Of a stretch of 64,000 bases of DNA, positions 19,614-64,000 are shown piece after piece; position 1 is the stretch's first letter; each line of letters starts with the position of its first letter. Position numbers and translations under genes: made by a program. The stretch is from Cyanophora paradoxa CCMP329 (Eukaryota; Plantae; Glaucophyta): NCBI GenBank assembly GCA_004431415.1, contig QPMI01000577.1, positions 44,985 through 108,984 on the forward strand, given 5' to 3'. Below the pieces are notes generated by a model. The model saw only the letters and a list, made by a program, of their open reading frames with translations, was not told the origin of the DNA and did no database searches.

Positions 19614-19778
19614 CGAATGCTGCATGAGGCGCGATGAGCGGACCCGGGCGCAGCAAGGTGGCAAGAAGGCCTCATACTCTAGCACGGGCAGGGCCAACTC
19701 ACCAGGAAGGCATCCGCGTGGCTCATTTTCGGGAGCAAGCGGACAGCCGGGTACACGTTACAATCGCGGGTACGAAAA

Positions 19779-25433: not shown

Positions 25434-25455
25434 GCTTCCGCGGCGCTGTGCATGT

Positions 25456-27225: not shown

Positions 27226-27367
27226 TAGTATCCAGCCTGGCAGACTCCAGCCTGGCAGACTCCAGAGACCCCAGACTAGTACTAGGTAGTAGGCACTAGC
27301 CTAGTAGTATGCGTGGGCTAGTAGTAGGCTACTAGTAGCCTAGTACTGGGCAGTGGGCAGTAGGCAC

Positions 27368-27881: not shown

Positions 27882-27907
27882 GTGGGCACTGGGCAGTGGG
27901 CACTGGG

Positions 27908-29460: not shown

Positions 29461-29897
29461 GCACTGGGCCAGTCGACGTCGCCGCCGACTCGCCGGCGGG
29501 CCGGCGCCGGCGCGGGCCGGCGGGGCCTTGCAGCCTACTAGGGCCTAACTAGGCTACTAGGCTAGTTGCAGGCTTGCAGCCTTGCAGGGAACTTGAGGGA
29601 AGTTGCAGCTTGAATCCGAGTCATGCCATGCCACTGGGCCATGCGCTGCGATGATGCGCATGCATATGACTCTCAGTGAAGGGCACTGATCATGTGACTG
29701 ATGGCCCGAGGTCGACGGGCCCTTGATCATGGCTTGAATCCGCTTGATGCCAAGTTGATGGCGCAATATTTTAATTGCAATTGCAAGCCTGCGGCTGCAC
29801 CTGCAGGCTGCAGGGCCGTGTTCAGGCTTCCGAAGTTCCCCGGATCCGGGGGCGCACGTGCCACGCGGTGCGCAGCTGCAGCCAGCGCTATAGCCTA

Positions 29898-30127
29898 CTG
29901 GAGAACTGGTTAATTTAGTACAGGAAAATAATTAGTACTTCGCCAAAACTGCCACTTTAGCAGCTGGTAAATTTTTAGTAGGTCCGCCTTCGCAGGGCTT
30001 TTGTATGGCGGAGAGGGGCCTACCCCTACAAATTCTCGGCTTTAGCAGGCGGGAAATATTTAGTAGATCACTCAAAAAAGTTTAGTACTATAAATATGCA
30101 GCCCACTAAATATTTCTAGCTCTCCAG
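29898..30127. mobile_element. TA-flanked MITE, copy 2 (230 bp, uninterrupted)
   Basis: TA|CTGGAGAACT...AGCTCTCCAG|TA; single TATGCAGC at the position where copy 1 carries the nested insertion. Confidence 0.7.
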
Positions 30128-30424
30128 TATAGCTAGCTACTAGGCTATCCGAAAACGCTAGCTTTCGCTATAGCTATAGCCGCTGACATTTCGGCCGCGC
30201 GCGGGAGTCGGGACTCGGGAGAGAGGGCGCGCGCAAGCATCTCGTCGACTTCTCAAGTTCGCCGGCCGGCGCCGACGCCGCCGAGTTGTTCGAAGGTTCG
30301 CCAGCGCGCGCGCGGCCCGCGGCCGGCGGCAGCGGCAGAGCGGGCGACGTCCCAGCCACCACGCGCGCCGCGGCTGCGCGCGCGGGGCTGACCGTCGCGC
30401 GGCGCAGGAACCAAACCTCGCGCA

Positions 30425-33400
30425 ATGAAGGGCGCGCAAGCGGTTCTGCTCGTCGCCCTCGGCCTCCTGGCCTTCTCGGCTGTTGCCTCGGCCGCCGATC
30501 AATACGCGGTTCCTGCAAACTGCATTCCCTCCTCTTACACGCCTCCCACTTTCGAGAACACTGGCGTGAGCAACGTAGAAAAGTGCTACAGGTGCATACA
30601 TATGCATATGCATATGGTCGACCTTGTGAACCCAGACTTCGGGATCTTGCGCATGCTGATGTCGACCTTGCGCGGTCGTTTGCGTTCAGGTCCACTTGCT
30701 CTCCCGACCACTGCTCCATTGTTTGCGAAGGGGCCCTGTTTACGGGAACGCCAGCAAACCCGAAAGCCTTGTGCGTGTCGACGCTTTGACACATATACGT
30801 GAATTTCGACGACGACTGACGCGTGCACGTGCACGCGGCGCGCATGCACAGGAAGCCAGATGCCCTGAAGGTGTGGGTCACTGATACAGGGATTGGAAAC
30901 ACTCCCATCGACGAGGACAAGCCCGAGCGCATCTACTTTTACGCAAGCCAAGTTTTCACCGACACCGACAAGCTCAACATCGAGCAAGCTGTGTCCGGTA
31001 CCGGCACCGAGCGGCGAGCTGTGACCATCACTCAATTCCAGCTTGAGAATAGGCTGGACAAGAAGAACGAGACTGATGGCACCTACTACAAATTGACCTA
31101 CGTCGTTCGCTTCCCGAGAACCGACCCTCTGGCCAACTGCAGCCGCGGGCTCAAGAACTGGATCTCCGTGCGTTGGATTAATATTCGAAGTCCCCCTTGA
31201 GCTTGATTTTGACTGATCATGACGCGCGCAATATTCGTATGCAACAGGGCGGTTTCAAGTGCGGGGCAACCGAAATCGTGTGGCAAACGGGGCAGGGCGC
31301 GGCGGAGTTCCTCAATCCAGTTCTGAACAGTGGAAACAGCGATGCGGGCGTTAACTGCGTAGCTGATACAGGCTCGACCAACGTTGACACGCCGACGCCG
31401 GCGCCGACCAAGAAGCTGTACGCGCCTCAGAACGTGGAGATCAACCTCGGGGCGTTCAGCTACGCCGTCGGCTACCCCGCGACTGTCTCGTGGACGAACT
31501 CCGACGCTACGTACGCCAAGGCCGTGGATTACGTGCGTCCGCGTTTAGAGAACGACGCGATCGCAAGGACTGATCGCTGACATTTCGACTGATCGCACAG
31601 TTTACGATTGATATTCTGCCTCGTGCGTTCGCCTGATAATTTAAACACGCGTACGCGTGTTCCGGATCCTCCGTGTGCTGACCTTGGAGCGCGCGCACAG
31701 CCTCGAGCCCAGATCACGGGCCGGAGGGTGTCCAGAGCTGCCCCTTCAAAGAGCCCCCTTACAGCAAGAACTTCACGGGCACCACGGACCGCGACTACGC
31801 TGACATCGACAACGCGGTCAGCCCGCAGAGCATCAACTACCTCTGCCCTGGTTCGTGGATCTTTATATATTTATATATGTACCGATTCTATGGATCACGG
31901 CATTTATGCACACACAGGCTCCACCTACACTGTCATCGTCTCGGCCTGCACGAGCGCTCCTCTCGAGTGCGTGTCGTCCACGACCATCAAGGCCGTTCCG
32001 GGTTCGCCGCGCTTCGCTCGTCCTTCCATTATAATTAGTACTCCGGGGCGCCGCTGGGCCGGCTCTGAACGACGTTTTCCGCGCAGCTGTCGCGCCGACG
32101 AAGCCGCTCTGGCAGTCTGCCGCTGCAGGGGCCTTCTCGTTCCCGCTCGGCACGTGGACCGACGCCAAGTACAACGCCAGCGCTTATGACGGCGGCGCAC
32201 GCGTCAACAAGTACATCGTGACCGTCACCCCGGTGGGCACAGAAGTGGACTGCCCGAATCCTCCGCACAGCAAGGCTACCACCGTGACCACCTTCAAGCA
32301 CGTGAATGAGACCTCGACGTGGACTTACGAATCCCTCCGACTCGACGTCGCGGCCTATCTCTGCCCCGGTATGCCATGATATTGCTGGATTCAAGTTCTA
32401 GATCTGATCATGAGCTCGAGTTCTACATCTGACGTTCGACCCGGGCTGCCGCAGGCAACCAGTACACGCTGACCGTGGAGGCGTGCAACGCTGTTGGCTG
32501 CAGCGGCCAAGATGTGTTCCTCAATGCTGGGGGCGTCGGCATCGACGCGGCCTCCGGCCCCGGTGTTGACACGACTACCGTCGCCGTTTCTGGTGCGAGA
32601 TCTAGATCTCGAGCTCGAGCTCGATGCTTCACATCATGAAGCGCCGGCGCATATGCATCATGAACGAATTGCATCGCGCAGCGGTCCCCCCGGTGTGCGG
32701 GAAGCCCCTGCCGCACACTGAGCCCGGCCATCAGTCCGGGCCGTACGGTACACATAGTAAAATGCGGAGTTTTAACCCTCGGCTTATCTTAATTGATTTT
32801 GTTGATATATCTCGTATATTCTATTTCAATCAATCGATAATCTGTGTATATCTTATCGAATATTCAATTATTTCGATTATTTTGTATTCTTTTCGATATT
32901 TTATCGTAAATTTCTCTTATTTTCCGATTAGTCTTACTGAGTCTATCGATAATCTCTATATATTTCCGAATAATATAACTGAATCTCAATTAGATCTTGC
33001 CTCTGGTTAAAACTCCGCATTTTACTATGTGTGATTGGTCTAAAAGTTAATTGATTTAATCGATATTATATTCATGTACTTTCTCGATTAAATTTAATTA
33101 AATTTAATTCATTTAATCGGAAACATATCGCTTAACTCGATTAATATCTATATGAGATTCATTTGTTTAATTAAACAAATAGATCTCTTATTGAATCCAA
33201 TCGTAATTATACATGAAATTGATATGTTTTTATCATGTTTTATTGAGTCTAAGGGGGGTCCCTTAAGAATTTAATGAATAATTGGGTGTCACAGGTGTCA
33301 CAGGTCCATCCCAAACTTTTGGAAATTCACTCTTTATAGGAGAAACTTTGGGATAGACCTGTGACACCTGTGACACATACCATATTCAGTAAGGATCTCT

Positions 33401-36400
33401 TTTATAATGAAAAACTCAGTAATAATCTTATCTATGTATTTCTAATTGAATAAACAAATTAAATAATCGAGTGTCACAGGTGTCACAGGTCCATCCCAAA
33501 CTTTTGAAAATTTACTCTTTATAGGAGAAACTTTGGGATAGACCTGTGACACCTGTGACACTTACCATATTCAGTAAGGATCTCATATATTGTTAAAATC
33601 TCAGTGTTAGTTGGTGTAGTTGATTCAAAAAATGCATTTATACTCTGATTCATTGTTATTTCCTGTGAAATTTGAGTCAACTCAACCCACTTAGTCAACC
33701 CTTGCATTGAATTCGTAACAAAATCCATCACACTGTGATTAAAACCATTCTCCCCCCTGTGATTTATATCACACTGTGATTAAAACCATTCTCCCCCCTG
33801 TGATTTATATCACACTGTGATAAAATCACTCGAGGTATTTATCACACGTCGAAGTTTCGCCGAAGTTTCACACTTTTACGATTAATATGAGTCAACCTTG
33901 AGTCCACTTAAATAATAGGGTAATAGGGGGAATCTAGGGCAGATGCTTAGAAATGAAAGAATTATTGAGCCTATGATACTTTCATAGTCACGCTAGCCTC
34001 GTTAAGAGGATTCCGAATCTGTTTTTATCTTTGTTAGTTGATGAGTTGGTGAAGAGATACATGCATTTTAGTGTTTTGTATGGGATTTCATGCTATGACG
34101 TCATAATGACGATGCATATGTATATGATATATATGACATACCACGTGACTCGGGAGATCATGACGATCACGGCGATGTATTCATTGTCGTGATTTATACC
34201 ACACTGTGATTTTTATCACACTGTGATTAAAACCATTCTCCCCCCCTGTGATTTATATCACACTGTGATTAAAACCATTCTCCCCCCTGTGATTTTTATC
34301 ACACTGTGATTAAAACCATTCTCCCCCCTGTGATTTTTATCACACTGTGATTAAAACCATTCTCCCCCCTGTGATTTTTATCACACTGTGATTAAAACCA
34401 TTCTCCCCCCTGTGATTTTTATCACACTGTGATTAAAACCATTCTCCCCCCTGTGATTTATATCACACTGTGATTAAAACCATTCTCCCCCCTGTGATTT
34501 ATATCACACTGTGATAAAATCACTCGAGGTATTTATCACACGTCGAAGTTTCGCCGAAGTTTCAGTGTTTCGCTTGTCGGCATCTTCAAACGCTTGTATC
34601 TCATCACCAGATCATTAAAACGCAACGTTCTGCATAGCGTTGTGAAGCGCTTGATAAGATCTACAAGATTATGTGTATATCATATGCATATATGTATATC
34701 AGTCATACATATATTTGGAAAAAACGAGTTTTTGCCTAGTAAACTAGCTAGTTTTGGTCCTCTCTCTTAGTGTTCTTTGAGGTTTAGGGGCTGTGTATGA
34801 CTCCTTAGTAGTCTGAAAGTCATTATACCATCTCTGGCTATTCACTTCTGAAAGTTTCTGTGTCCCTGCTATGGTGAGCTTTTTGAGTTCCCTGTTAACT
34901 TTGCCAGTCTTCTCCTTTCTAGCCTCTATCAAAGGCTTATCTGGGACTTCATTAGCAGCTTCTATGCCTTCTCTCCTTATAGCAGCATCAACCCTGGCTT
35001 CCTCTTTGGCTTGCTCTAAGGCATCCACTGTAGGGGTTTCCAGATACTCAACTGCATTCACAGGTAACAGCTCATGGAATGCAAACCTGTTATCTATGAT
35101 CTCACCATTGGGACTCCTTAGCTTAAACTTAAAGCCTTCCCTACTATCAACAGTGTAAACCATCCTAGACCAATTGTTACCCTGTTTAGCAAAGGGGTTC
35201 TTCTCAACTTTCACTCTAACAAACATGCCAGGCTGCATGGTATCAAGATAAGCTATTGATTTCTTGAATCTTTCATCTTCTAATCCCACTATATACCTGT
35301 AATGCTCCTCTGTAGTTTCACCTGGCTTCAGCTTAGTAGCTGAGTGAACTGTATTATTGTAATTAAACTCAATATCACCCAACACATCAAAGAATCTAGC
35401 TGTGTTATTGGCTATGCAGTAGTTTGTGATCAATCTCTTAATCTGCTTGTTAAAGGCTTCAATTCGACCTTGGCTCCTATGGTCAGCAGTTCCACTCACT
35501 TGGTGTTCTATGTATTTACTAGATAGATACTCCTGGAATATTCGATTTTGGAATTCACTCCCAGCATCTGATTGAACCTTTACTATGGGTCTTGCCACTC
35601 TCATTTCAAGCTGTTTAAATGCAGCCAATGTAGTGAGAGCTGATTTATCCCTTATAGGTATAATATACCCAGTTCTCAGTGTGGATTCCATAGCAGTCAT
35701 AAAAGTATCATAGCCATTGTTTTGTTTCTTATAAGCTGGGAAAAAGAGCAAATCAATCACATAGGTATCAAGGGGTTGCCTAATTGGGACCATGGGATCT
35801 CTCTTTCTAGATATAGCAGGTGCATTGATCTGAACTACTTCCTGTTTTTTATAGAACTCTTGCAACTGCTTATAGGATTCATCAGGTAACTCAGCTCTCA
35901 TAGCTTGAAGCCCTTTGTAACCTGTTCTGACATCATAGAATCTCTTTGCAATCTTGCTGGTTTCTTTCACTGCAATTGCAACTGGAATCTCTACTGGGAC
36001 AAGTTCTTTCATCTCTGATTTTTTAACAATTCGAGATTCTCCCTTTTCCTCCTTTGGAATTGTGATGGGCAACAGGTTACCTTGCAGTTGTTCAGTGGTT
36101 CTTCTAACTATTCTTCCAGTTGCTGGCATCTCTTAATTAAAAGGAACAGAATTAATACCATCTGGTAAGATGTATCTCTTTGCATCAAAGCATTTTAGGG
36201 CAACCCTTCTACTCACAGTATCTATTATTGTGTGATCTGCCCTTCTTTTCTGCTTTGCAGTCACAGTCTTGCTGATACCTGCAAATAAACACGGCTTAAA
36301 ATCATTAAATTGGAGTTCCTCAGTGGAAGTCCCAGAGAGCTTACTTCTCTCAATCTCAGCAGTTCTAAAACTGTAAACCTTGGCTCTCAGACCCACATAC

Positions 36401-54400: not shown

Positions 54401-57400
54401 GGCAGATCTCACAGACAAACCGCTCACGTTTACTCCTTCTGCGCACACTCACACAAAGTCTCAAATTACAGATTTCGCCATTCTCACACAAAGTCAGAGA
54501 TTACAGATTTTGCACACACCCATTTATGGGCAGATCTCACAGACAAACCGCTCACGTTTACTCCTTCTGCGCACACTCACACAAAGTCTCAAATTACAGA
54601 TTTCGCCCATTCTCATACAAAGTCAGAGATAACAGACTTTGCCCACACTCATTTATGGAATGACATCACAGACAAACCATCAACGTTTGCCCCTTCTGCG
54701 CACACTCATGATTACTTGCCTCTCACAGGAGGAACAATTTCCTCAAATCTTACGATTTCATCCAACTTGAATGTTATAGGAAAAATTCAAATTGGAGACA
54801 AAAATACAAACATTGATGTATACTATGACGCACCCTATTATCCTGTTACTTCTAATACAGACCCCGCTTTTGCCATACCAGATTGCCTCTTAACAATAAG
54901 ATTAGATGTTGTCCCTGTCGGCATAAACATCAGTCACGCCTTTATTGCAAATAGAGCAACTACGGCAATTCCCTTTATTTCCGGGTAACCTTCCATGGTC
55001 AGGATACAACACAATAACTCAATTGAGATCTGATTACAATAACCGAAACATTGCCCAACAACCTACTTATTCATATACAAGCCGGGAATTTGGAATGCCG
55101 TATCCCGTAACTGTGGATTGGTCAAAAGGTATCACCATCTTCTTTGCAGGTTCTTATAGATTTTGGGGACCGTGGGTAGATCTCTTAAATTTTAGTTCAC
55201 CAGATGGAACTAATAAAGTATCCTTTGGGACAACAGGTAGCAGTATGGGTATACATTCTTATACAAGCAATGGTGTGACTTACCCAGCAGCACACTTAAA
55301 TTATCCCACATCGTATTCTGAGTTGTCGCCGAATCATTGGGACTTTACAGTTTCTTCAAATGTCTGCACTTTCGGATTTAACGGACAAGATTTAGGCACA
55401 GTCATTACAGAAGTGGATTATCTTCCACCTTCCACTTTTAGTAGGATGGGTGTTGCCTATTTCATTACGGCAGTAGGGAATATATTATATTCAACAGAGC
55501 ATTGACATTTGATGAAAGGCAAAAAGTGAGATATTATATGCAAGATTATTTTGGCTTTCCAAAAAAGCAAACAATCGTTATTCCTGATAATCTACGCATT
55601 TCTGCTGAAAATGTTCATATTAGAAATTTAATCGTTTCTTCAAATGCAAGCATTCCAAACTATACCACATCAAATGTGGTTCAAGGTTGGATACAGAACC
55701 ACACACCTGCGTGGTCAAATATCACAGACAAACCGTTAACGTTTGCTCCTGATGTTCATACTCACACAAAAGACCAAATATCAGACTTTTCCCATTCTCA
55801 TTTATGGAATGACATCACAGACAAACCGTTAACCTTTGCTCCTGCTGCTCACTCTCATTTATGGGCGGACATCACAGACAAACCATTAACATTTGCACCT
55901 GCTGCTCACTCTCATTTATGGGCGGACATCACAGACAAACCATTAACATTTGCACCTGCTGCTCATACTCATGATTGGATAGGTATTACAAATAAACCTT
56001 TGCTGTTTCCGCCCGATGCTCATACACACCCTTGGAGTAGTATAACAGAAAAACCATTAACATTTCCGGCAACAGCTCACACTCATTTATGGAATGATAT
56101 TACAGACAAACCAACATTTGCAACTGTTGCGACAACCGGAAATTATGATGATTTAATTAACAAGCCAACATACACAGCGCCCACAAATTTTGACGCTACA
56201 AGTATTATTCCACAGATCGCACAGGTGATTGGAGAAATTACAACGGAGGAATATTGACAGGGGACACAAATACTTGGGCGAACACATGGGCTGCTTCTGA
56301 TGAAGATTGTAGTAGCTGTAAAATGTATTGGAATGTCCCAACAGGAATGAAATCTTGTTATATCTATTATGCTTGTCATTACAATTGTAGATACTTTGAT
56401 GTGGTGGGAATTTATCCTCCAACAACTGTGTATACATATTTACGAGTAAATGCCTATTCTACTGCAATCGACCCATCAAAGGAATTCAAACAGTATGTTG
56501 GAATAAATTGTGAAGGACTAACCAAAGTTGGTGTTCATGGACAGAAAGGAAGAATTTATTTACCCGGTCCAATTGCTGTTGGATGGAGCAAAAACCCTGC
56601 TGTAACTTCACACAGTGGTTACTGTCATTGGGATAATATCTTCGGAAAACCAACAGCTTCAACATCTGTCGGTCCTCACTCACACAGCAAAGCAGATATC
56701 ACAGATTTTGCACATACTCACACAAAGGCAAATATTACAGATTTTGCCCATACTCACACTAAATCAGAAATCTCAGATTTGCCTTCTTTTGATCCATTCA
56801 CAGCCAATACGATCACAGCAAATAATACTATGTATGTAGGATCGGGTTCAATAGTAACTCCTGCATCACCCACAAACCAAGAAACATGGTTCTTCCACAA
56901 TTCCGCAAACTTTTATGATAAAACACTGCTCTGTCGTGGAAATGCTTATGCAAGAGCATTTTATGCGATGAATGCAGGAACCACAAACACAATCAGCCAA
57001 GTTCCATCTTGGTATGATATAGAAAGACGTTTCAAATCAGGAAAATATCAAGCCACAAGTGGTGTTATAAGCGCGGGTCAAACAACACAGCATGCATATG
57101 TTTTATATTGGACCCACCTTTTTACACTCAGACACCTGTTGTAAATGCCACACTTCAAGGAACTCCTGCAACAAACCCAGGGATGTAGATTTTAGAATTG
57201 GAATCTCAAACTCCACAGCTAACTACACAACAATCTATGTGACATTCATAGCATCCCCTACTCTATCTGAAAGTCGAAGTATTACTTGCACAATCCATTG
57301 GACAGCATATGGAATCCCATAATAAATGCATATTTCGCATTATTTTTCTTTCCTTCTTAGTAAAAGAAGCAATGGTGAATATAATCGAGTTCAACTGCCT

Positions 57401-60400
57401 ATATATTCCCTTGGATCCCCTGCAATGCATTTTCGCCAGCATGAAGTAAATGATGAGGTTCGTGGTTTAGAATCCACAGAGAGACCCAATTCCAATGGTA
57501 ACTCCTTTGATAAAATTCGATTATTCGAGTAAAAGAGCTGAGAGCTGATAAGAATTCTGGTGTGGTTAAAACAACTCGACTTCTTGTCACCAATGCTAAC
57601 TTCTTCCAGCCTACAAATGGAGGTCCTGATGCTTACAGTGTTGCCCTGAAAGCCCTAGATTTCGACAAGAATACTGCTGCTGTTACTGTGAGATCAGGAG
57701 GAGCATTTATTGGGGGTGGCTGTCGAATTTCAGGTCAGCTTTCATCCTCAATTTCGTATAATGATGTCCCAGATACTCTAGAGCAAAATGTAGAAGACCC
57801 CCAACGAATTCGATTATATACTCCTGTTGCACAGCAGCCATTAATTCAATTTTACATTGGATATACTGTTACTCTTGAAAACTCGGAATTAATTGAAGGA
57901 ACCAAAAGAGTACTGAGAGGTCTTGCGATTCCATCTGCAATGCTTTCCTTTGTAGAGCCAACAACAATCAAGTAGGTCATAAATACTATTTCAATGTTCA
58001 GGGATATAATCATTTCGGTTATGGCTACTGTGTTTATAATAATAATTTCACCTTTGACTTGTTTGTTACAGATATTGGGTTATATACTATAACTCTTATC
58101 GGTTTGAGAACAGATATAGCCGCTGTATCAGCTCTTAGAGGTGTAACTCCTGATACTCTTTCAGTTACAGGGTTTTACATGGAGCCAGATGTAATTGATG
58201 ACCCAACCCCATAAAAGATATATCCCTTTAATGTAAAATGGCTGAGCAACCCCACTTGAACGAATTATTACACCTCAACTATCATTAGCTGCCCCAGCAA
58301 ACCATGTTTTACAGCATGCTACCTTTGATGATGTAGAGGGTCTCCAATCCACAGAGGTCCAACCTACAATGAACACCTTTGGTTCCACCCACAAACTGAG
58401 ATTACAGGAACTCAGATGTGATAAAAATAATGGAATAGTTAAGACAACTAAGCTACTTGTCACAAATGCAAACTTTTCTGCTCATTATGGAGACCCAGAT
58501 AGCTATGGAGATCCTCTGTCTACTTATTCTTTTGAATCTAGGTCGGGAGCTATTAACTGCAAATCGGGGGGAGCATATATTGGGGATGGTCTTAGGGTTG
58601 GTGGGGCTGTTGGAGCGCCTTTATTTGTGAATGATCAACCCAATCCTATTGATCCCAATACAAGAATTCGAACCTATGTCCCCAGCATGAATGCCCCATA
58701 CATTATAAAGATATTCCCCATTGTTGTAAATGAACAAACAGCAGTAGTAGACTCTCTTGTTGAAATTGGTGACCACTACAAGGTAGTTGTGGATATCCCA
58801 CCAGATGTATATGCTGTATGTCAAGTAGAGGGTGGAACTCCTAATTTTGCAGTTGTGATCACCCCATATGATAATTTGGTATTGCTTATCATGGAGTCAA
58901 TTTCGGTTTGGAAGACTATCAGTTTCTGGTGAGAGCCACCAAGTTTGGTATCTACAAGTGTGTATTATATGCTGAGAGAACCGATTTTATTGCAAGGCAG
59001 AATACCTATGCTGAGTATTATGGCACAAATCGATATTTCCCCATTTTTGGACAGGATACTGCTCCATAAGAATATTGGTTATATATAGAGTATGGATAGT
59101 AAAACAAAAAAGTTTATTGATGCTGCTATGACAGTTCATGGTAAAGATAAATTCGATTACAGTGAGACACATTACATCAAAGCTCAAGAGAAAGTATCTG
59201 TGAGATGTTTGCAGTGTAATAAGGTGATCCTTACCTATCCCTTTAATCATGTGAAGGGATCAGGTTGCAGGACTGTAACAAAAGAAAGAGTCAAGCACAC
59301 AGGAAAAGAGCTACTTCATCAATCAGAGTAGAGTATAGGGATATTTGCATTAGGTTTGACTAGTTAATTTTTCTAAGGTATTCTTAATGGAGACTAAATA
59401 CAGAGGCTTTCATGTTATGCTTGATTACAAGGCTAAATCAGCTATAGCAACAGGTTATGAGCATGTTAGCTTCCTAGGTAATTGGATTATGGGAACCCTT
59501 GAACAAGCTATACTGAGACAAGGTATTAGGATTGTTCATAAACACTGTGAGATATTTGATGGCAAAGTATCACCTCCTGGGTTTGCATTAGTTCTGCTCT
59601 TAGATGAAAGCCATTGCACAGCTCATTGTTATTCCAATGAAGGCATGTTAGCAATTGATATATTCAGTTGTGGTAAAGAAGCTCAGCATAAAACACAATC
59701 TGTTGCAGATGAGATCGATAAAACAATGAATTTCCTCACATTTGAGAAGACTGAGAGACATAAACATGATAGATTCCCGTTTTGATGGGTTTCTATAATG
59801 AATTTTAAAGGATTCCTTTGTTTTCTAACAATAACATTGATAAGCTACTGTAACAAAAAGATATAATATATCCTTTCACTACAGTAGCTTTATACAATGA
59901 TTATTTTCCGGATTCCGGACATTTTTACGATAGAATTCTATTTTAAGTAATTGGAATAATGTTCGATTTCATTACAGTAAAATTCAACATTCCCCTAGAT
60001 TCCCCCTATTACCCTATTATTTAAGTGGACTCAAGGTTGACTCATATTAATCGTAAAAGTAGTAAAAGTATATGGATTTTGTTACGAATTCAATGCAAGG
60101 GTTGACTAAGTGGGTTGAGTTGACTCAAATTCACAGGAAATAACAATGAATCAGAGTATAAATGCATTTTTGAATCAACTACACCAACTAACACTGAGAT
60201 TTTAACAATATATGAGATCCTTACTGAATATGGTAAGTGTCACAGGTGTCACAGGTCTATCCAAAGTTTCTCCTATAAAGAGTAAATTTTCAAAAGTTTG
60301 GGATGGACCTGTGACACCTGTGACACTCGATTATTTAATTTGTTTATTCAATTAGAAATACATAGATAAGATTATTACTGAGTTTTTCATTATAAAAGAG

Positions 60401-62566
60401 ATCCTTACTGAATATGGTATGTGTCACAGGTGTCACAGGTCTATCCCAAAGTTTCTCCTATAAAGAGTGAATTTCCAAAAGTTTGGGATGGACCTGTGAC
60501 ACCTGTGACACCCAATTATTCATTAAATTCTTAAGGGACCCCCCTTAGACTCAATAAAACATGATAAAACATATCAATTTCATGTATAATTACGATTGGA
60601 TTCAATAAGAGATCTATTTGTTTAATTAAACAAATGAATCTCATATAGATATTAATCGAGTTAAGCGATATGTTTCGATTAAATGAATTAAATTTAATTA
60701 AATTTAATCGAGAAAGTACATGAATATAATATCGATTAAATCAATTAACTTTTAGACCAATCACACATAGTAAAATGCGGAGTTTAACCAGAGGCAAGAT
60801 CTAATTGAGATTCAGTTATATTATTCGGAAATATATAGAGATTATCGATAGACTCAGTAAGACTAATCGGAAATAAGAGAAATTTACGATAAAATATCGA
60901 AAAGAATACAAATAATCGAAATAATTGAATATTCGATAAGATATACACAGATTATCGATTGATTGAAATAGAATATACGAGATATATCAACAAAATCAAT
61001 TAAGATAAGCCGAGGGTTAAAACTCCGCATTTTACTATGTGTTACGGTGTGGCCCTACACCTTCATCTAACCCTGCGAGATTTAACAGGCCGTCCAGGCG
61101 GCCAGTCGGTCAAGAACGTGGATCAGCTCAAGTACCTGTTCCCCGACCAGGACAACGACCTGAACGGCGCCGAGAGCCCGATGCTCGAGTGGACTGACAT
61201 GGATCTGAGCCTCTACGGCTTCAAGGACGCGATCATCTACTGGCCCAAGGTGTCCTACCACGGCGGGGCAGGCCAGAAAGCTGACAGTAAGCTTGAGGCC
61301 ATCTCTTGATCGTGATTCTTTTCGGAAAAGGTCTAATGCGGCCCGCGCGCGCCTTGCAGAGTACAACATCACCCTCTTCCGTTACATTCGCGGCGCGAAC
61401 GGCTACGCCCCCGACAAGTACCAGAACTCTACGTACGTTCTGATTCGGTGTAGCTCCGTCGCTGCCTGCGATCAAGTTCTCACAAGTTCCGTTAGGTGGC
61501 CGCACCGTCGACGGCGACGTGAACTTTGCGTACGCGACCAACATCCAGCCCTCGCACTGCGTACGTATACGCCCCATGCCTAGGCCTTTCCATACTATAG
61601 GCTATAGATATATATTGCTAGTGGCGCCCGAACCCTCGGCGATAAACTTATATGAGTCGTATTAGTACTAGTGATGCCCTATCCCTCCCTGACTTTCCTT
61701 GCCAGTACGGGATGGGGCTCAAGCTCTGCAACTCGGTCGGCTGCTGCTCCCCCAGCAGCAATCCGCTCGAGAGCAGCGTCCCTTCACCACGGAAGACGGC
61801 AAAGTCCTGGCCCCCATCGGTGACTCCACCTGGTTCCAGCCGTGTACGCCCGCCCATCCTCCCGCGCTCCTTGCTCTCCCGCTTAAGCTTGGCACTGACG
61901 CCTCCACGTCGACCGCAGCCCAGAACTACGCGAACAAGAACTCGCGGGAGCCGACCGACCGCGGGTACTGCGTGGCCATCAGCCATCGGCGTCGTCACCA
62001 AGTCGCTCGTCGGCGCCGTCGACTTCAGCGGTGTCCCGGCCGAGGCCGCCACCACTACCGGTACCGCCGGCTCGGCCGCCCGCTCCGCCTCGACCGCCTC
62101 GTCCTCGGGCACCTCCAACACACTCCTCGCCGTCGCCATCGTTCGCGCCGGCCTCTCAGATATCGTTTAACACTGCATTAGTAATCCGTGCCGTTTCTTA
62201 CCGCCCCGTCTCCTCGCAGCCGTCCCCGTCGGCATTGCGGGCCTCGCCATCGGCGCCGTGCTCGCCGCGATGGTCATCACCCGCAACCAGGTCCGCGCCG
62301 CGACCATGGCCGCCGTTAGCGCCGGCAGCCGCGGCCAGACCCTGGTGCGCGATTTCGATCCGTGCACGTGTTAACGTTTCTCCTCGTTCTTTTCTGAACG
62401 CCCCCCGCAGAACATCCAACCGGCCTCGAACGCCTCGTTCGACCCGCACCCGCGCCCGGCCTCAAATGTCATGCTCATGGGCTCCGAGGAGTCGGCCCAC
62501 ACGCATGGGCACGAGTCCGCCAACATGCGGCACCGCGAGGCGGCCGCCCCCGAGTTCGACGTGTAA
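30425..62566 (+). CDS. Host type I membrane protein with fibronectin type III-like domains, split by the PLV insertion (exons 30425-32747 and 61089-62566)
   Basis: Signal peptide MKGAQAVLLVALGLLAFSAVASA; FN3-like motifs (APQNV..VSW, GSTYTVIVSAC, GNQYTLTVEACNAVGCS); reading frame continues across the element (..HQSGPYG|RPGGQSVKNVDQLKY..); TM VPVGIAGLAIGAVLAAMVI; stop at 62564-62566. Confidence 0.75.
32750..33728 (+). repeat. Left terminal inverted repeat (~980 bp; further 70-bp match at 33872-33939)
   Basis: Reverse complement of 60072-61042; 33872-33939 matches 59993-60060. Confidence 0.95.
33728..33870. repeat. Two 41-bp units plus tail, duplicating the end of the 34216-34563 array
   Basis: tcacactgtgattaaaaccattctcccccctgtgatttata x2 followed by ...tcactcgaggtatttatcacacgtcgaagtttcgccgaagtttca, as at 34504-34563. 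Confidence 0.9.
34216..34503. repeat. Tandem array, 7 x 41 bp
   Basis: Unit TCACACTGTGATTAAAACCATTCTCCCCCCTGTGATTT(A/T)TA starting at 34216, 34258, 34299, 34340, 34381, 34422 and 34463. Confidence 0.95.
34744..36129 (-). CDS. Retroviral-like (rve, DDE) integrase, Polinton type
   Basis: YVIDLLFF / VQSDAGSEF / SQGRIEAFNKQIK / YNNTVHSATKLKP; C-terminal PGMFVRV..NWSRMVYTV; consistent with the 6-bp TSD. Confidence 0.93.
   Translation of the reverse strand: MPATGRIVRRTTEQLQGNLLPITIPKEEKGESRIVKKSEMKELVPVEIPVAIAVKETSKIAKRFYDVRTGYKGLQAMRAELPDESYKQLQEFYKKQEVVQINAPAISRKRDPMVPIRQPLDTYVIDLLFFPAYKKQNNGYDTFMTAMESTLRTGYIIPIRDKSALTTLAAFKQLEMRVARPIVKVQSDAGSEFQNRIFQEYLSSKYIEHQVSGTADHRSQGRIEAFNKQIKRLITNYCIANNTARFFDVLGDIEFNYNNTVHSATKLKPGETTEEHYRYIVGLEDERFKKSIAYLDTMQPGMFVRVKVEKNPFAKQGNNWSRMVYTVDSREGFKFKLRSPNGEIIDNRFAFHELLPVNAVEYLETPTVDALEQAKEEARVDAAIRREGIEAANEVPDKPLIEARKEKTGKVNRELKKLTIAGTQKLSEVNSQRWYNDFQTTKESYTAPKPQRTLRERTKTS
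36133..39378 (-). CDS. Family B DNA polymerase (protein-primed Polinton type) with N-terminal vOTU-like and endonuclease-VII-like domains
   Basis: Motifs FDANNLYG, KLMNNSIYGK, FHDTDS, GLRAKVY; YGLDPVHYVSAPGLSWDAML; CYLC..DHDHHTG..ACRNCNL; NIRNIDDSCF...GHY. Confidence 0.93.
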   Translation of the reverse strand: MPRISNRLIREKKWELMGLLGTLYAAHEITEAEYDREIGFISRGRPTLAKLTRKANNLYDKVETLDELDRLRQIEPEAEDGTAMNELYRWLTYRARREVVVDVIEYLDRIATSLPKRLRDSLDQFRAIKVRLSFICKFVKVSNPQVWISKYIYSDYFVLTKSRNIRTELNKAAQMCQEQMNVVDSYRLERIEMLRVAIMSYAPTGGCYVKTPESIAAKRATVNIRNIDDSCFENAILAWIHRKDVNSHKRSELTQYRKWKYSPTIYNPLALNFDNISFPVACDAEIIDKFESQNAGISINIFGMDRDVIYPLHQSSNPGRKQKINLMLIHDDEGNGHYITIMSLSRLLRVALDKTKDQKLHYCDTCLSRFRSEAKLTAHVDSNRCIDWRLSKGITPKPDTTIEFGLKNLRKTVWLPVVVYCKIEHRSIPIDASKSKREVSAVNIRIVTGADVQEFRFEGLDPMGGLFECLESKARELIDFLFTNIPMNELTDEQKAVYRATKHCYLCSERFTKENFKCRDHDHHTGNYIAPACRNCNLHRRISKQTKVAVVVDQMDDCGTFIFRKIAGMGDKKRIEILSKNFDQYLSLQWGLYKFIDASNFMDFGAADVDELMSKFQAFRRLSHSVYGLDPVHYVSAPGLSWDAMLRTTKAKIELISDVEQYEFVERGIRGGFATMPCRYAEADGENSHIMLFDANNLYGYCLSQPIPVGDFRWETEFNPQDNRSSFLEVDLDYPIRLFLDHSDFPLIINKKIVEYAELSQYQKSLLDLSGEELDKTPKLTATFGSVTNYVISEPLLQYLLDKGVKLKKVHRVLSFTVAPVMKPYIELNTEMRRRAVNKFEADFYKLMNNSIYGKCIESCRGRSVVKIANSEKLFMKYAASPLVKSTSPINEKAVAFEFYTKHVKLDKPVAIGAYVLDAAKLHNYQFFYDTIRSQWSKAKLLFHDTDSFCLYIESKTLQKDIENISYALDLGGSNRMTPGKYKNEMPGSAILEYVGLRAKVYSFRTAEIERSKLSGTSTEELQFNDFKPCLFAGISKTVTAKQKRRADHTIIDTVSRRVALKCFDAKRYILPDGINSVPFN
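39446..39486 (+). promoter_or_regulatory. Putative viral promoter motif (copy 1 of 3)
   Basis: AAAACTACTTAAAGAAATATCTTCTATATATATAAAAGGAC immediately before the ATG at 39488; near-identical at 40769-40810 and related at 40316-40346. Confidence 0.65.
39488..40303 (+). CDS. Hypothetical Zn-binding protein with coiled coil and C-terminal DUF5710-like motif
   Basis: CACDHPI...VGNCCILRF, CERC..CNKC; VPYLKKDIAKGLDCRWNKDKKTW. Confidence 0.7.
   Translation: MAEKKSYCLEKLKAALMLLCGSDNFNDYVALGSNRKPLPLWAKLAKYGLSDYDLPPESEHCACDHPIKEQCYILHVNKKIVVIVGNCCILRFIPKGARGQDICERCGDRHKNRKDNFCNKCRIALKQEELERKRELEKQEEARKRQLELEERERKQRELEQERARNKHAVNLFLIWSNQFIPKMDNLRRDDIERFREGRSALIEMYAELSTTNTLVAGFQVPYLKKDIAKGLDCRWNKDKKTWETLEIEPFVALLGKHFKLMYIERFGQRG
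40360..40614 (+). CDS. Small basic protein, possibly DNA-binding
   Basis: MPLSEAQKRAMKRYQQTEKGK; preceded by the shared promoter motif. Confidence 0.6.
   Translation: MPLSEAQKRAMKRYQQTEKGKAQIKKFNEKIATQLRDLYNTDDTYRAMKIASSCQRKYAANAVCFVKYLYDVPYSNRGRKLKHV
40769..40810 (+). promoter_or_regulatory. Putative viral promoter motif (copy 3)
   Basis: AAAACTACTTAAAGAAAAATCTTCTATATATATAAAAGGGAC upstream of the primase-helicase. Confidence 0.65.
40825..43152 (+). CDS. Primase-polymerase (AEP/PrimPol) fused to D5-like SF3 helicase
   Basis: VIDFDD and KTKKGYHVYF (AEP); CPCC..H..N Zn-like segment; IGFDNGVFDL (D5_N); Walker A GAGANGKS; KEVTGG; AIQRR. Confidence 0.92.
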   Translation: MNAKQTKSLKSLANWLRSDEDLAKNMIIPVKPDSKDPVFKHKGGAWSWEKYEEALATNQYVSWGILLSDNMMVIDFDDEEDFEKFRDMFPDDFDANQPMAKTKKGYHVYFKRPEEFTKLKITDKAPGFKGFEKVDLKTITGTGTSGLINVCPSVNKTWVIAPWDDTCDFNEPTDEFKKWIAENYIYKSEYTASASSNDELEKSILKELVDMGFMHPNIISKTELGFSFDAANKGLNCPCCNGSHESNNWYVMKAKGEDKKYIVSSYSGNCKKRFIFIGMQSDIFNLIDKSAGSGGAHYDVSLVCKEVLQHTWRYSKKSWFKLNTDTGIWEHDDTNQKIYLDISCLVVPQYLGRAVHYSQRALKDEENRTAFEEKSKTLISIAKNLKQSGYRKSLLTDLLPLLNDDEFYEKIDTVPYVIGFDNGVFDLTTMTFRKGKLEDMVSKSVGYDYTENVDPKKVEHLNQIYREIVDDPAERKYLLASIAIALSGSTKSQKFYMWTGAGANGKSLVQEYCKQISGAYYSPLEISYWTKPKKNSSDATPELAKLLGKRLVFSNEAEDGDKLQISKIKEVTGGNEMTVRALFKDPVILTPMFQVYITTNDNLTINKPDFAIQRRLSYQRFNNIFREKPEAGQKKADPTLFTLLHNDDEYKMAHMKILLDMWKNKEVEEILRNPPQSIIEQGINFIAENDKIGEWLRDNFEVTHNANDFVSSDTIYKSYRSVDDKVECVSVMKRVREIFNVKSEVKRIQGTRARGYIGLRKITRVQEDNGEDVEY
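43372..43593 (+). CDS. Small hypothetical protein
   Basis: Open frame MAKTLDEMTMNELDKCIKHGD...; no recognisable motif. Confidence 0.35.
   Translation: MAKTLDEMTMNELDKCIKHGDIGAYIEMSQRLIGYNMYAAKPKRNRSVNIHITVSVSENANKKQQKHIYKSYL
43681..43926 (-). CDS. Small basic protein with AT-hook-like motif
   Basis: QKRYREDPEYREYKKQQALASYYRRK...RPRGRP. Confidence 0.6.
   Translation of the reverse strand: MEDTISLIEFTSDEPVTEGSIRHILAMQKRYREDPEYREYKKQQALASYYRRKAQKEEQRPRGRPIKYYLPTDSSNGPPGL
43910..44182 (-). CDS. Small hypothetical protein
   Basis: 90-aa ORF tightly packed in the minus-strand gene block; CHSGCC motif. Confidence 0.5.
   Translation of the reverse strand: MDIIRKFIEMLSLHVVSNCHSGCCDTTIEFEMSDTEDNVSEARERRRSTVSVESMPADPTEYTYEQQEYPRRSSLPAENVFSGNINGGHY
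44205..44939 (-). CDS. Hypothetical charged protein (possible virion core protein)
   Basis: 244-aa ORF next to the ATPase, with N-terminal MPPKRK NLS-like motif. Confidence 0.6.
   Translation of the reverse strand: MPPKRKIGIPAGAVGYSGGGNNGSINTEPMKFNGMNEVKPSQQEEDPLNAAYEESVDDKAPQASTSDQLNISPEASKMRAVAEGARRIIGAADDKGLGLQDLSLARKGEGLSKESDKVIQSMAGEVTYKTAPTQNIHRIPKAQWDEMTAKLKDLEAKSSALEQYVTEKKERAKLKEMLRKEVYKMGITGVPDKQFIAKKENQIDEQAVDEMKTKTQKGTIEPGATKAEVEKGVAPTVYKRRVWL
44968..45750 (-). CDS. A32/FtsK-like genome packaging ATPase
   Basis: Walker A GKSATGKS, Walker B LCVVLDD, SRGRHSKISIICITQ, IRVNSDY. Confidence 0.93.
   Translation of the reverse strand: MTDLDEFVAGEMIEPPFRVLALGKSATGKSEAVKYWLKQLHDAKKIDVVLVVSGTSFNHFWDKVATLQLGKWDAPYIAKLLDERQEKIEKGEPVNQLCVVLDDLIDNEIVDLTRDKIIGSLYSRGRHSKISIICITQKLRKVSSTIRVNSDYAMFLSAANRKELEAIEEEYNIMRNKEDFYKMFEEYVHSYQYIIWSSANYSVKYYVDKAELVKDFPFPRFHRKPKKKEDELKPPEKEEAPKEVKSQVHSNKLMRYKRGL
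45816..47183 (-). CDS. Major capsid protein (double jelly-roll), ~455 aa, split by about 3 frameshifts in this assembly
   Basis: ATG at 47183; ISFKLPR..CGKLELAFDLP, VQRLEITYG, FFVEIPVPW/LAKSLPSLGALSGEMVVTVWF resemble DJR MCP strands; lies between ATPase and penton. Confidence 0.75.
47237..48247 (-). CDS. Minor capsid (penton) protein 1
   Basis: YIEVSS..SSFVARLP..YENVRAVRLVSAEFYNS; LFVRVKEL; LSTFSVDIVNAINEPIDFEGQPVHLTFEI, the PLV penton pattern. Confidence 0.82.
   Translation of the reverse strand: MPVDYIEVSSFNTISGDGPTSSFVARLPSSYENVRAVRLVSAEFYNSIPMVSGETKAGDVTVDNAFSIYYSEQTPGAGSSGIPTVRPAADYEQWKQFIISRNTPIQSHQQLVNVINSKFEGRNPQPSIRCKWDESLKRIIFHSAVPFYLAFSVAVNPSQQTIQKLLSSARLLGLDPGRYGNSPIQSQVYDALTDGIFTGGRVNGIISSFEPEKTRDSVLFVRVKELGDLVQCGDGLLTGYFHKIVVPDKDYGEHVVYNSTEAHPLYKYYNKKVGLSTFSVDIVNAINEPIDFEGQPVHLTFEIRYGDEPAGDPVYEYFKMRMSQLHPSYPVITNFA
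48277..49207 (+). CDS. Minor capsid (penton) protein 2, frameshifted in assembly
   Basis: LVNIDSRDR..SYRVTL..RVLYAEIPNSIY; YLYMHIKEL; IRELTVEFKDYFGELIDMNGIDNSFQLEF spread over three ORFs. Confidence 0.8.
49197..50752 (-). CDS. Patatin-like phospholipase with C-terminal F5/8 type C (discoidin) domain, one frameshift near 49850
   Basis: LSLSGGGARG, GTSTGG, ATSAAPTYF, IDG; then FTASS, EYLQVAF, STDGINW, KYIRIYP..PTMRVDFTG. Confidence 0.85.
50796..57322 (+). CDS. Giant modular phage-tail-fibre-like protein (~2,200 aa if frameshifts are corrected; could be more than one gene)
   Basis: LLP..KDLG..RQWRNI motif; acidic EEYLPDG repeats; HxHxWxDITDKP repeats; YLPLxGGTI motifs; two LamG-like blocks (ISELIVFNRALT..VRYYIQQKYG); C-terminal IHWTAYG. 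Consecutive ORFs abut with 1-nt frame changes. Confidence 0.75.
53870..54712 (+). repeat. Coding tandem repeats (HTHTKSQITDFA / HTHLWADLTDKPLTFxPSA)
   Basis: Alternating 12-aa and 19-aa units, near-identical at DNA level; related blocks at 55700-56170 and 56675-56790. Confidence 0.9.
57372..58214 (+). CDS. Spike/fibre-like protein, paralogue A (frameshifted)
   Basis: GLESTE..ELRADKNSGVVKTTRLLVTNANF..GGAFIGGGCRISG..GLYTITLIGLRTD. Confidence 0.6.
58238..59088 (+). CDS. Spike/fibre-like protein, paralogue B (frameshifted)
   Basis: GLQSTE..ELRCDKNNGIVKTTKLLVTNANF..GGAYIGDGLRVGG..VVITPYDN..GIYKCVLYAERTD; end approximate. Confidence 0.6.
59092..59331 (+). CDS. DUF723-like zinc-ribbon protein (single repeat)
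   Basis: FIDAAMTVHGKDKFDYSETHY..KVSVRC..C..PFNHVKGSGC. Confidence 0.65.
   Translation: MDSKTKKFIDAAMTVHGKDKFDYSETHYIKAQEKVSVRCLQCNKVILTYPFNHVKGSGCRTVTKERVKHTGKELLHQSE
59387..59785 (+). CDS. speD: S-adenosylmethionine decarboxylase proenzyme, short prokaryotic class (pyruvoyl-dependent)
   Basis: G.HVMLD; PPGFALVLLLDESHCTAHCY; AIDIFSCG: ESH self-cleavage motif and conserved (T/S)CG. Confidence 0.88.
   Translation: METKYRGFHVMLDYKAKSAIATGYEHVSFLGNWIMGTLEQAILRQGIRIVHKHCEIFDGKVSPPGFALVLLLDESHCTAHCYSNEGMLAIDIFSCGKEAQHKTQSVADEIDKTMNFLTFEKTERHKHDRFPF
60072..61042 (-). repeat. Right terminal inverted repeat
   Basis: Reverse complement of 32750-33728; the differences I checked are single-base homopolymer deletions. 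Confidence 0.95.
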
Positions 62567-63835: not shown

Positions 63836-63990
63836 TAAATGAATTCGCACACACCGAGACAAGTGGCTAGAGATATAACTGAGGTGTCCATCTGTGTCAA
63901 GTCGAGAGATGAGCCTACGGGACTAAGCCTTTCGGACATCGGACCGGGTGGAGCTCGGATGTGGAAATAACTGGAGAAGCTACCCCGGGG
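63836..63990. repeat. Dispersed repeat, inverted copy of ~28995-29150
   Basis: taaatgaattcgcacacaccgagacaa..gagctcggat.tggaaataactgga is the reverse complement of sequence inside the 27908-29460 element. Confidence 0.85.
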
Positions 63991-64000
63991 ATTAATTCTA

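What the first reader, a model, noticed from the sequence alone, without database searches (positions are those of the whole stretch)
32750..61042. Complete endogenous Polinton-like virus with an unusual gene combination
Seen: TIRs, TSD, rve integrase, pPolB-type polymerase plus a separate PrimPol-SF3 helicase, ATPase, MCP, two pentons, patatin-discoidin, giant fibre, two spikes and AdoMetDC. I found no adenain-type maturation protease, which classical Polintons carry. Inference: a recently integrated, probably virion-forming virus of a possibly undescribed PLV lineage. It could be autonomous or parasitise a giant virus.
Basis: partly seen in the sequence, partly recalled or inferred. Interest (0 to 1): 0.85.

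Follow-up and report, generated by a model that had tools for sequence, protein, structure and literature searches.

The report
Algal provirus with proofreading-dead polymerase
A complete 28-kb Polinton-like virus is integrated, as one of many similar copies, in what is likely a glaucophyte alga; its family was already listed in published surveys, but its DNA polymerase has lost its proofreading residues and it likely copies itself with the help of a swappable helicase that would load on mirror-image repeat blocks in the virus ends.

Summary
Confirmed. 32750-61042 is a complete integrated virus: 979-bp terminal inverted repeats with no substitutions, a 6-bp target duplication, 39% GC in a 67% GC host, and the listed genes; frame breaks look like assembly errors. 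No capsid-maturation protease was found. It is less new than proposed: its closest capsid relatives are Cyanophora paradoxa elements that Bellas 2023 tabulated (366 MCP hits, two unnamed clusters), and Bulzu 2025 tabulated the same gene families, protease absent, across 156 glaucophyte elements. The capsid family is still isolated (6 hits in 1.84 billion proteins) and unnamed. Added here: (1) the pPolB keeps its polymerase motifs but has lost the three exonuclease motifs and about 90 residues, as has one relative, paralleling mavirus; (2) a GTGTCACAG palindrome follows the PrimPol-SF3 gene and recurs four times in the ends, and the same word lies just downstream of SF3 helicase genes in 15 of 35 viral contigs, a likely origin (this scan reported such origins earlier in sibling elements); (3) strong CpG depletion, fitting a methylating host. 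Particles and helper dependence are untested.

The parts
32744..32749 (+). left target-site duplication TACGGT (right copy 61043-61048); the site lies in what reads as one continuous host coding frame
32750..33728 (+). left terminal inverted repeat, 979 bp, starting 5'-ACACATAG
33005..33032 (-). inverted copy of the terminal 28 bp; the end can fold into a 28-bp stem around about 227 AT-rich bases
33286..33376 (.). iteron palindrome 1: two GTGTCACAG, AT-rich spacer, two inverted copies
   Evidence: (z -8.5)
33471..33561 (.). iteron palindrome 2
   Evidence: (z -10.3)
33727..34519 (.). left-only subterminal region with a 41-bp tandem array (2.4 + 7.7 copies), each unit holding CTGTGA twice
34744..36129 (-). 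rve (retroviral-type) integrase, 461 aa, D126-D188-E224
36133..39378 (-). polinton-type pPolB, 1081 aa: terminal-protein-like domain, vOTU with Cys and His, degenerate and shortened exonuclease with an EndoVII-like zinc insert, intact polymerase motifs A, B, C
39488..40303 (+). Cys/His-rich 271-aa ORF of the helicase cassette, weak DUF5710 hit; function not established
40360..40614 (+). small basic ORF, 84 aa, of the helicase cassette
40825..43152 (+). PrimPol (AEP) - D5-type SF3 helicase, 775 aa
43212..43303 (.). iteron palindrome directly 3' of the helicase gene; candidate cognate origin
   Evidence: (z -3.2)
43681..44182 (-). two small ORFs (81 and 90 aa), no family hit
44205..44939 (-). 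244-aa ORF beside the ATPase, no credible family hit
44968..45750 (-). A32-like packaging ATPase, 260 aa
45816..47183 (-). [quoted passage not shown]
47237..48247 (-). likely penton (minor capsid protein) 1, 336 aa
   Evidence: lead only
48277..49034 (+). likely penton 2, frame-broken in this assembly
   Evidence: motifs by eye
49197..50752 (-). patatin phospholipase followed by an F5/8 (discoidin) domain in an overlapping frame; likely one fused gene
50796..52815 (+). 491-aa acidic-repeat ORF with fibre-like repeats at its end plus a following piece; likely structural
52824..57322 (+). giant fibre with phage-tail (PTR) repeats, several frame breaks; the most variable region among copies
57326..58932 (+). 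two paralogous ORFs (57326-58214 frame-broken; 58246-58932), possible short spikes
59092..59331 (+). 79-aa ORF matching a domain of phage endonuclease families
59387..59785 (+). prokaryote-type S-adenosylmethionine decarboxylase homologue, 132 aa, ESH cleavage motif present
60072..61042 (-). right terminal inverted repeat with iteron palindromes at 60237-60326 and 60421-60511

Best explanation
This is an integrated Polinton-like virus with a full capsid module, an rve integrase, a polymerase that has lost its proofreading motifs and a separate primase-helicase; it likely rests as a silent provirus in a glaucophyte alga, and on waking would be copied by the polymerase working with the helicase loaded at the repeat palindromes, packaged into fibre-bearing particles and re-inserted by the integrase. 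Shown: anatomy, 6-bp duplication, loss of exonuclease motifs, position of the palindromes, many related copies, CpG depletion. Inferred: (a) the rve integrase made the insertion (6-bp duplications go with rve, Bulzu 2025); (b) host CpG methylation silences it; (c) the helicase's C-terminal region binds GTGTCACAG and melts the AT-rich spacer, as in PICI, P4 and pRN1 replicons, and PrimPol or the terminal-protein domain primes; (d) the helicase block is an exchangeable cassette carried by only some copies; (e) A32 fills a double-jelly-roll capsid that needs no maturation protease, and fibre, discoidin and patatin serve attachment and membrane entry; (f) the trigger is more likely a giant virus (about 55%) than autonomous induction (about 30%). 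Odds: endogenous PLV 0.95; exonuclease inactive 0.9; palindromes are origins 0.65.
For: Ends and genes. Capsid: P0001 model's top 13 matches among 48,161 chains are all double-jelly-roll proteins (best Z 13.1, rmsd 16.7, 303 aligned; low-confidence model, pLDDT 54), and BFVD agrees. Exonuclease: ExoI Asp is present in 70 of 70 aligned relatives but is Lys here and Gln in P0002; the ExoII Asn and Tyr are present in 70 of 70 and the Asp in 69 of 70, and here all three are gone (P0002 keeps only the Tyr); the stretch that holds ExoIII is 95-405 residues (median 97) in the 70 and 4 and 8 residues here and in P0002; motifs A, B, C and the vOTU Cys/His are kept; model pLDDT 86, best match phi29 polymerase. 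Krupovic 2024 links exonuclease loss to helicase gain. Origin: 19 exact GTGTCACAG, all inside the element, 18 in five palindromes; 13 pattern matches against 0 in 100 shuffles; 15 of 35 IMG/VR loci with the doubled word have an SF3 helicase gene ending 0-640 bp upstream; of 44 metagenome loci with the whole palindrome 18 have a helicase match and 14 of these place it 3'; PICI and pRN1 origins have this position. Cassette: summed contig depth 3,100-9,400 over the helicase block against 16,700-34,000 over integrase-polymerase in run X2, same pattern in X4; its three genes share one upstream motif found nowhere else in the window. CpG across codon boundaries 71 observed against 299 expected, GpC control 195 against 184; host flank o/e 1.1; C. 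paradoxa methylates 32% of CpG and its virus-derived genes are enriched among methylated genes (Sarre 2025).
Against: No particle, free linear DNA or biochemical data. The MCP and other late genes are broken in this assembly, and the contigs that show the extra bases are pooled from many copies, so this copy's integrity is inferred. The helicase-adjacent palindrome is weaker than those in the ends. 20 of 35 and 30 of 44 outside loci do not show the helicase-then-motif layout (8 of the 35 are collagen-coding coincidences, many of the 44 are short), the helicases there are mostly bacterial VapE types only 24-32% like this one, some loci are redundant, and I ran no random-position control. The terminal-protein fold and a Ser/Tyr in its linking loop are kept, so plain protein priming is not excluded. 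Only one relative (P0002) shares the exonuclease loss, and the tree placing the pair inside exonuclease-intact polintons has support 82, a long branch and no mavirus sequence. Depth is not a copy number by the tool's own warning.
Confidence: 0.62

Rival explanations
1. Ordinary protein-primed polinton-style replication from the ends; the PrimPol-SF3 block with its palindrome is a hitch-hiking mini-replicon that inserted next to the polymerase and is not needed by the virus.
For: Terminal-protein-like fold, Ser185/Tyr186 in the linking loop and active-looking vOTU are kept; the block is in fewer copies than the polymerase; Barth 2026 proposes that AEP genes move on their own.
Against: The block's repeat word is present 16 times in the virus's own ends, which a passenger does not explain; the exonuclease loss fits a partnership with a helicase; the conserved GSGW loop (64-67 of 70 at each position) is changed here and in P0002.
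Confidence: 0.2
2. An autonomous nuclear temperate virus that needs no giant-virus helper (same anatomy, different trigger).
For: Own polymerase, primase, helicase and entry proteins; TATA-like upstream motif; CpG depletion points to long nuclear residence; TsV-N1 is lytic on its own (Bellas 2026).
Against: Most tested PLVs, including reactivated endogenous ones in Tetraselmis, depend on a giant virus; the integrase + exonuclease-less pPolB + separate SF3 set mirrors mavirus; giant-virus insertions are reported in C. paradoxa.
Confidence: 0.3
3. A family that now spreads only inside the genome like a transposon, or is already dead, with capsid genes decaying.
For: Frame breaks in five structural genes in this assembly; no close capsid or ATPase relative in IMG/VR or the protein collections outside a handful of sequences.
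Against: The same kind of single-base gap affects the non-coding right TIR, and short-read contigs carry the extra base at the listed breaks; no in-frame stop interrupts integrase, polymerase, helicase or ATPase; fibre genes are the most diversified part, as expected of receptor-binding proteins.
Confidence: 0.12

Closest known systems
Cyanophora paradoxa endogenous viral elements (Bellas et al. 2023, PMC10120064, Tables S2 and S4; Bulzu et al. 2025, PMC12220804, Table S6)
   Same: MCP family: P0001 (54-63% identical to the window's pieces) is itself a row of Table S2, and another row there is about 80% identical to one window piece by eye. Gene families counted among 156 elements: ATPase 139, minor capsid 97, lipase 89, rve 85, AdoMet_dc 66, DNA_pol_B_2 49, D5_N 40, Prim-Pol 8, protease 0.
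   Different: Nothing fundamental; these are most likely the same family. The tables count families over elements and do not show co-occurrence in one element; the passages I saw give no name, phylogenetic place, exonuclease loss, origin or CpG analysis.
Mavirus (Lavidavirales virophage; Krupovic et al. 2024, PMC11161782)
   Same: rve integrase, pPolB without a working exonuclease, separate SF3 helicase, integration in a protist.
   Different: [quoted passage not shown]
Maverick-Polintons (class Polintoviricetes, group 1)
   Same: pPolB with TP-vOTU-Exo-palm layout and EndoVII-like insert, rve, long TIRs, 6-bp duplication, ATPase, MCP, penton.
   Different: No cysteine maturation protease, exonuclease dead, MCP without detectable similarity to polinton MCPs in the HMM search, ends begin AC rather than AG (AG recalled), 28 kb, extra primase-helicase.
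Nucleocytoviricota-like small viruses of Bellas and Sommaruga 2026 (Zoravirus VC102, VC218, Zephyrvirus) and Mriyaviricetes (PMC11253617)
   Same: 20-30 kb, capsid proteins whose nearest look-alikes are giant-virus-type, rve common in VC102/VC218, lipase and AEP-SF3 or pPolB in Zephyrvirus.
   Different: No HUH endonuclease or VLTF hit in Pfam; Mriya48 not testable; their profiles were not available. Giant-virus-like structural hits are generic for PLV capsids (Bellas 2023).
PICI/SaPI pri-rep-ori and pRN1 replicons (PMC6092414, PMC4234260)
   Same: Primase-SF3 helicase gene followed directly by two opposed iteron sets around an AT-rich spacer, or a long stem-loop.
   Different: Prokaryotic, circular, one origin; here a eukaryotic linear provirus with four further copies in its ends and its own B-family polymerase.

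Membership tests
Polinton-like viruses (broad sense) | double-jelly-roll MCP | tested here: met
   54% to P0001; model of P0001 matches only DJR proteins in its top 13 rows; HHpred row in Bellas 2023
Polinton-like viruses (broad sense) | A32-like packaging ATPase | tested here: met
   Pox_A32 E 1e-10
Polinton-like viruses (broad sense) | [quoted passage not shown] | tested here: inconclusive
   Atlas lead DUF5901, recognition just under the threshold; no fold run; no PDB sequence hit
Polinton-like viruses (broad sense) | 14-40 kb with terminal inverted repeats | tested here: met
   28,293 bp, 979-bp TIRs
Cyanophora paradoxa EVE MCP clusters (Bellas 2023) | MCP at least 25% identical over 30% of length to a cluster member | tested here: met
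   57% and 63% to P0001 for the two pieces aligned; P0001 is listed in Table S2; which of the two clusters was not determined
Polintoviricetes group 1 (Maverick-Polintons) | pPolB and rve integrase | tested here: met
Polintoviricetes group 1 (Maverick-Polintons) | adenain/Ulp1 maturation protease | tested here: not met
   no Pfam hit in 32 ORFs or pieces, no motif match in six frames, no room left
Polintoviricetes group 1 (Maverick-Polintons) | Mavpol-type MCP | tested here: inconclusive
   profile search of 1.84 billion representatives gave 6 hits, none named as polinton; Mavpol profiles not available
Virophaviricetes (mavirus-like) | virophage-type MCP and cysteine protease | tested here: not met
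   no protease; mavirus and Sputnik MCPs rank 11 and 13 (Z 8.0, 7.4) below giant-virus MCPs (Z 13.1-11.0) for a low-confidence model
Mriyaviricetes / Zoravirus-VC218 | HUH endonuclease, VLTF2/3, no DNA polymerase (mriyaviruses) | tested here: not met
   pPolB present; no HUH or VLTF family hit in Pfam; definitions
Mriyaviricetes / Zoravirus-VC218 | Mriya48 gene; ATPase and MCP profile placement | not testable with these tools
   the 2026 HMM set and Mriya48 profile are not held; ATPase search returned 1 relative, too few for a tree
Iteron origin of the PICI/P4/pRN1 type | opposed repeat sets around an AT-rich spacer directly 3' of the primase-helicase gene | tested here: met
   comparative support
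Iteron origin of the PICI/P4/pRN1 type | bound by the helicase and required for replication | not testable with these tools
   needs binding and replication assays

The most novel reading that the evidence does not exclude
A deep, glaucophyte-confined capsid lineage outside all named groups, whose polinton polymerase is caught half-way through losing its proofreading domain, independently of mavirus and of the pPolB-S1H fusions, and which has moved from pure protein priming to PICI-like helicase-loaded origins written into its own ends; its SAM decarboxylase and CpG avoidance would counter host methylation. It would be a living test of the proposed exonuclease-for-helicase trade in a culturable alga with over a hundred copies.
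Probability: 0.3. Interest if true: 0.72.

Novelty: new variant of a known kind. Interest (0 to 1): 0.48.

Why it matters
Glaucophytes have no described small DNA virus in the papers I could search, and this family is abundant in a cultured model alga, so induction and particle tests are within reach. The polymerase offers an intermediate state for the proposal that these viruses trade proofreading for a helicase, and the palindromes offer a concrete candidate for the unmapped replication origins of PLVs. As a plain report of an integrated PLV with this gene set it is largely known from survey tables.

Tried and rejected
No own genome was held, so copies could not be counted or compared directly. 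IMG/VR scans with ATPase and AdoMetDC found no relative; the helicase found one at 23%; the MCP alignment had no usable pattern. PDB sequence searches with two MCP pieces and penton 1 were blank. P0124, one of the 6 MCP profile hits, is a low-complexity repeat protein and was left out of alignment A3. No RNA holder was listed; two runs guessed as RNA gave scattered low-depth contigs, some with TIR and flank sequence, which could be DNA: not used for or against expression. Window structural and replication proteins other than the helicase had no tblastn match in loci L001-L079, so none of those loci is a close viral relative. The giant-virus-like fold hits were not taken as evidence of Nucleocytoviricota membership. 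The change in the GSGW loop was not taken as loss of protein priming. The careful tree did not finish; the quick one is quoted (32 of 35 chosen relatives passed my trimming pattern; P0003 is a long, probably misannotated row). Mimivirus early promoter word: 1 copy per strand, no signal (word recalled). The idea that AdoMetDC lowers host methylation is untested; viral homologues can be true AdoMetDC, arginine or ornithine decarboxylases (PMC9992855).
Full report
1. The observation. The element spans 32750-61042 (28,293 bp). GC falls from 53-83% per kb in the flanks to 30-44% inside. The terminal inverted repeats are 979 and 971 bp, with no substitution and eight single-base gaps, all in the right arm. 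TACGGT flanks both ends. The two flanks read as one host coding frame through the duplicated hexamer, so the insertion probably interrupts a host gene. Contigs from DNA runs X2 and X4 match the left junction and X1, X2 and X4 the right one with no differences; they reach only 26-27 bases into the repeat, under the tool's 31-base rule for bridging, so this is consistent with, not proof of, the junctions. X1 dates from 2012, so 'recent' means young in evolutionary terms.

2. Genes. Pfam on 32 ORFs or pieces and PHROGs on 21 proteins support rve, pPolB, PrimPol-D5, A32 ATPase, patatin, F5/8, phage-tail repeats and AdoMetDC. The integrase has the exact D-D35-E spacing. The C-terminal MCP piece has one relative among 4,706 candidates scored, P0001 at 54%; a profile search of 1.84 billion representatives gave 6 hits, of which P0122 (39% to P0001), P0123, P0125 and P0126 (26-30%) are credible. 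A low-confidence model of P0001 (pLDDT 54) matches double-jelly-roll capsids in PDB (top 13 rows) and BFVD. The ATPase has one relative among 541 candidates, at 85%. No maturation protease was found. MCP, penton 2, patatin-discoidin, fibre and spike 1 are frame-broken; short-read contigs show one extra base at the three MCP breaks, in penton 2, in spike 1 and at four of the TIR gaps among the rows shown (59 and 14 rows were not shown), so these are likely long-read errors, a problem Bellas 2023 describes.

3. Host and family. P0001 is the same sequence as a Cyanophora paradoxa MCP in Bellas 2023 Table S2, and a second row there is about 80% identical to one window piece by eye. The host is therefore likely C. 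paradoxa (inference). Table S4 gives 366 MCP hits in two clusters (272 and 94) under 'Iterative HMM searches', not under a named group. Bulzu 2025 Table S6 counts, among 156 glaucophyte elements, ATPase 139, minor capsid 97, lipase 89, rve 85, AdoMet_dc 66, DNA_pol_B_2 49, D5_N 40, PIF1 34, Prim-Pol 8, polinton-type MCP 2 and no protease. Barth 2026 describes genomes with two replicases and names one contig with the same accession prefix as these tables, and plots pPolBs with stand-alone SF3 helicases. The reads show a large family: single contigs over the helicase block have 15-45 times the depth of the junction contigs, and a TIR-inner joint over 110 times; the tool warns that depth is not a copy number.

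4. Polymerase. Its best matches are polinton-type pPolBs at 33-41%, except P0002 at 48% over the region searched (best 120 of 3,496 listed). In an alignment with P0002 and 70 of the others, the exonuclease acids and the ExoII motif are nearly invariant in the 70 and degenerate in the window and P0002, and about 90 residues including ExoIII are missing; polymerase motifs A, B and C and the vOTU Cys and His are kept. The model is confident (pLDDT 86, pTM 0.82) and closest to phi29 polymerase. The terminal-protein fold is kept; the GSGW loop is altered but holds a Ser and a Tyr. A quick tree joins the window with P0002 (support 100) on a long branch among exonuclease-intact enzymes (support 82; no mavirus row). 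Krupovic 2024 reports exonuclease loss in mavirus and in pPolB-S1H fusions, each with a helicase gain, and argues these were independent. This looks like a further, less complete case. A search for polinton + pPolB + exonuclease + proofreading + inactive returned one unrelated paper, and passages of PMC13215967 mention only the mavirus loss.

5. Candidate origin. GTGTCACAG occurs 19 times, all inside the element; 16 form four palindromes in the TIRs and two, with near-copies, form a fifth 60 bp after the helicase stop. They fold with z of -8.5, -10.3 and -3.2. In IMG/VR the doubled word matched 35 loci; I scanned the nearest one or two ORFs of each (41 ORFs): 15 loci have a VapE-like, DUF5906 or D5 helicase gene ending 0-640 bp upstream, 8 lie in collagen-like ORFs, 12 are unexplained. 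The whole palindrome matched 44 metagenome loci; 18 have a helicase match, 14 with the motif 3' (13-1,973 bp from the matched segment) and 4 with it 5'; 26 have none. PICI origins are two iteron sets around an AT-rich region directly 3' of the rep gene, and pRN1 needs a stem-loop 3' of its primpol-SF3 gene. I found this before consulting the scan's notes; they report the same arrangement in sibling elements of this genome. The three genes of the block share an upstream motif and the block has a third to a fifth of the summed depth of its neighbours, so it is likely an exchangeable cassette.

6. Silencing. CpG o/e is 0.32 inside and 1.11 in the left flank; across codon boundaries in 13 ORFs CpG is 71 against 299 expected while GpC is 195 against 184. 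With identical TIRs and open replication genes, this cannot be decay of this copy; it points to long exposure to, or avoidance of, CpG methylation, which C. paradoxa has (32% of CpG). The lone AdoMetDC may feed polyamine synthesis or drain SAM; its substrate is untested.

7. Mechanism and verdict. Integrase-made provirus, methylation-silenced, likely woken by a giant virus or by stress, copied by an error-prone pPolB with a helicase loaded at the palindromes, packaged by A32 into a protease-free capsid with variable fibres. It is a PLV in the broad sense and a member of the catalogued Cyanophora family; it fails the protease test for group 1 polintons and virophages and the HUH/no-polymerase test for mriyaviruses. 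New variant of a known kind; interest 0.48.

8. What I saw of each paper. Bellas and Sommaruga 2026 (10.64898/2026.06.19.733378): parts 1-4 of 5, no figures or supplements. Barth 2026 (10.64898/2026.10.13.758929): parts 1-4 of 5, no figures or supplements; these closed figures and supplements may place this family or show this element. Bellas 2023 (PMC10120064): passages and supplement rows (file cut when stored). Bulzu 2025 (PMC12220804): passages and part of Table S6. Krupovic 2024 (PMC11161782): passages and section 10. Starrett 2021 (PMC8502044), PMC6092414, 10.64898/2026.07.28.741278, PMC11253617, PMC13215967, PMC12344493, PMC9992855: passages. PMC4234260: abstract and the first part of section 18. 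'Not described' rests on searches of an open-access library only. Recalled, from no call: AG termini of polintons, the mavirus protease, DUF5901 as a giant-virus penton, penton and spike motifs.

Noticed in passing
window 31500-32749 and 61043-62300: The interrupted host gene looks like a multi-exon membrane protein with fibronectin-type repeats and a C-terminal hydrophobic stretch (by eye); the virus sits in its reading frame.
   Followed up: partly
window 32750-33032: The terminal 28 bp are repeated in inverted form 227 bases inward, so each end can fold back; longer and looser than the 52-95-base terminal palindromes reported for Halocafeteria elements and sibling elements.
   Followed up: partly
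window 39454, 40319, 40777: Motif TTAAAGAA-N-TCTATATATAT precedes exactly the three helicase-cassette genes; a TCTATATATA copy also lies on the minus strand near 59089. Palindromic TTTATAAA lies before the 244-aa ORF and between the divergent patatin and 491-aa genes.
   Followed up: partly
window 33727-34519: A 41-bp tandem array holding the CTGTGA core twice per unit lies inside the left end only; short-read contigs show that most copies lack or shorten it.
   Followed up: partly
window 52900-57250: The fibre region has about a tenth of the depth of the capsid core and many joints, i.e. several fibre types among copies.
   Followed up: partly
window 28986-29150 and 63836-64000: A separate 165-bp inverted pair (96%) in host DNA brackets the virus; possibly a host repeat or an older element.
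   Followed up: no
window 16900-19500, minus strand: Host exons with repeated segments resembling the RNA-binding domain of bacterial Rho (recalled resemblance).
   Followed up: no
run X19 (organism B): A run labelled as another organism holds scattered low-depth contigs about 95% like the element, including a TIR end; contamination or a related host.
   Followed up: no
L001, L039, L071 (one 80,684-bp contig): A GC-rich metagenomic contig carries the same palindrome at two places about 36 kb apart, one near a D5-like helicase.
   Followed up: no
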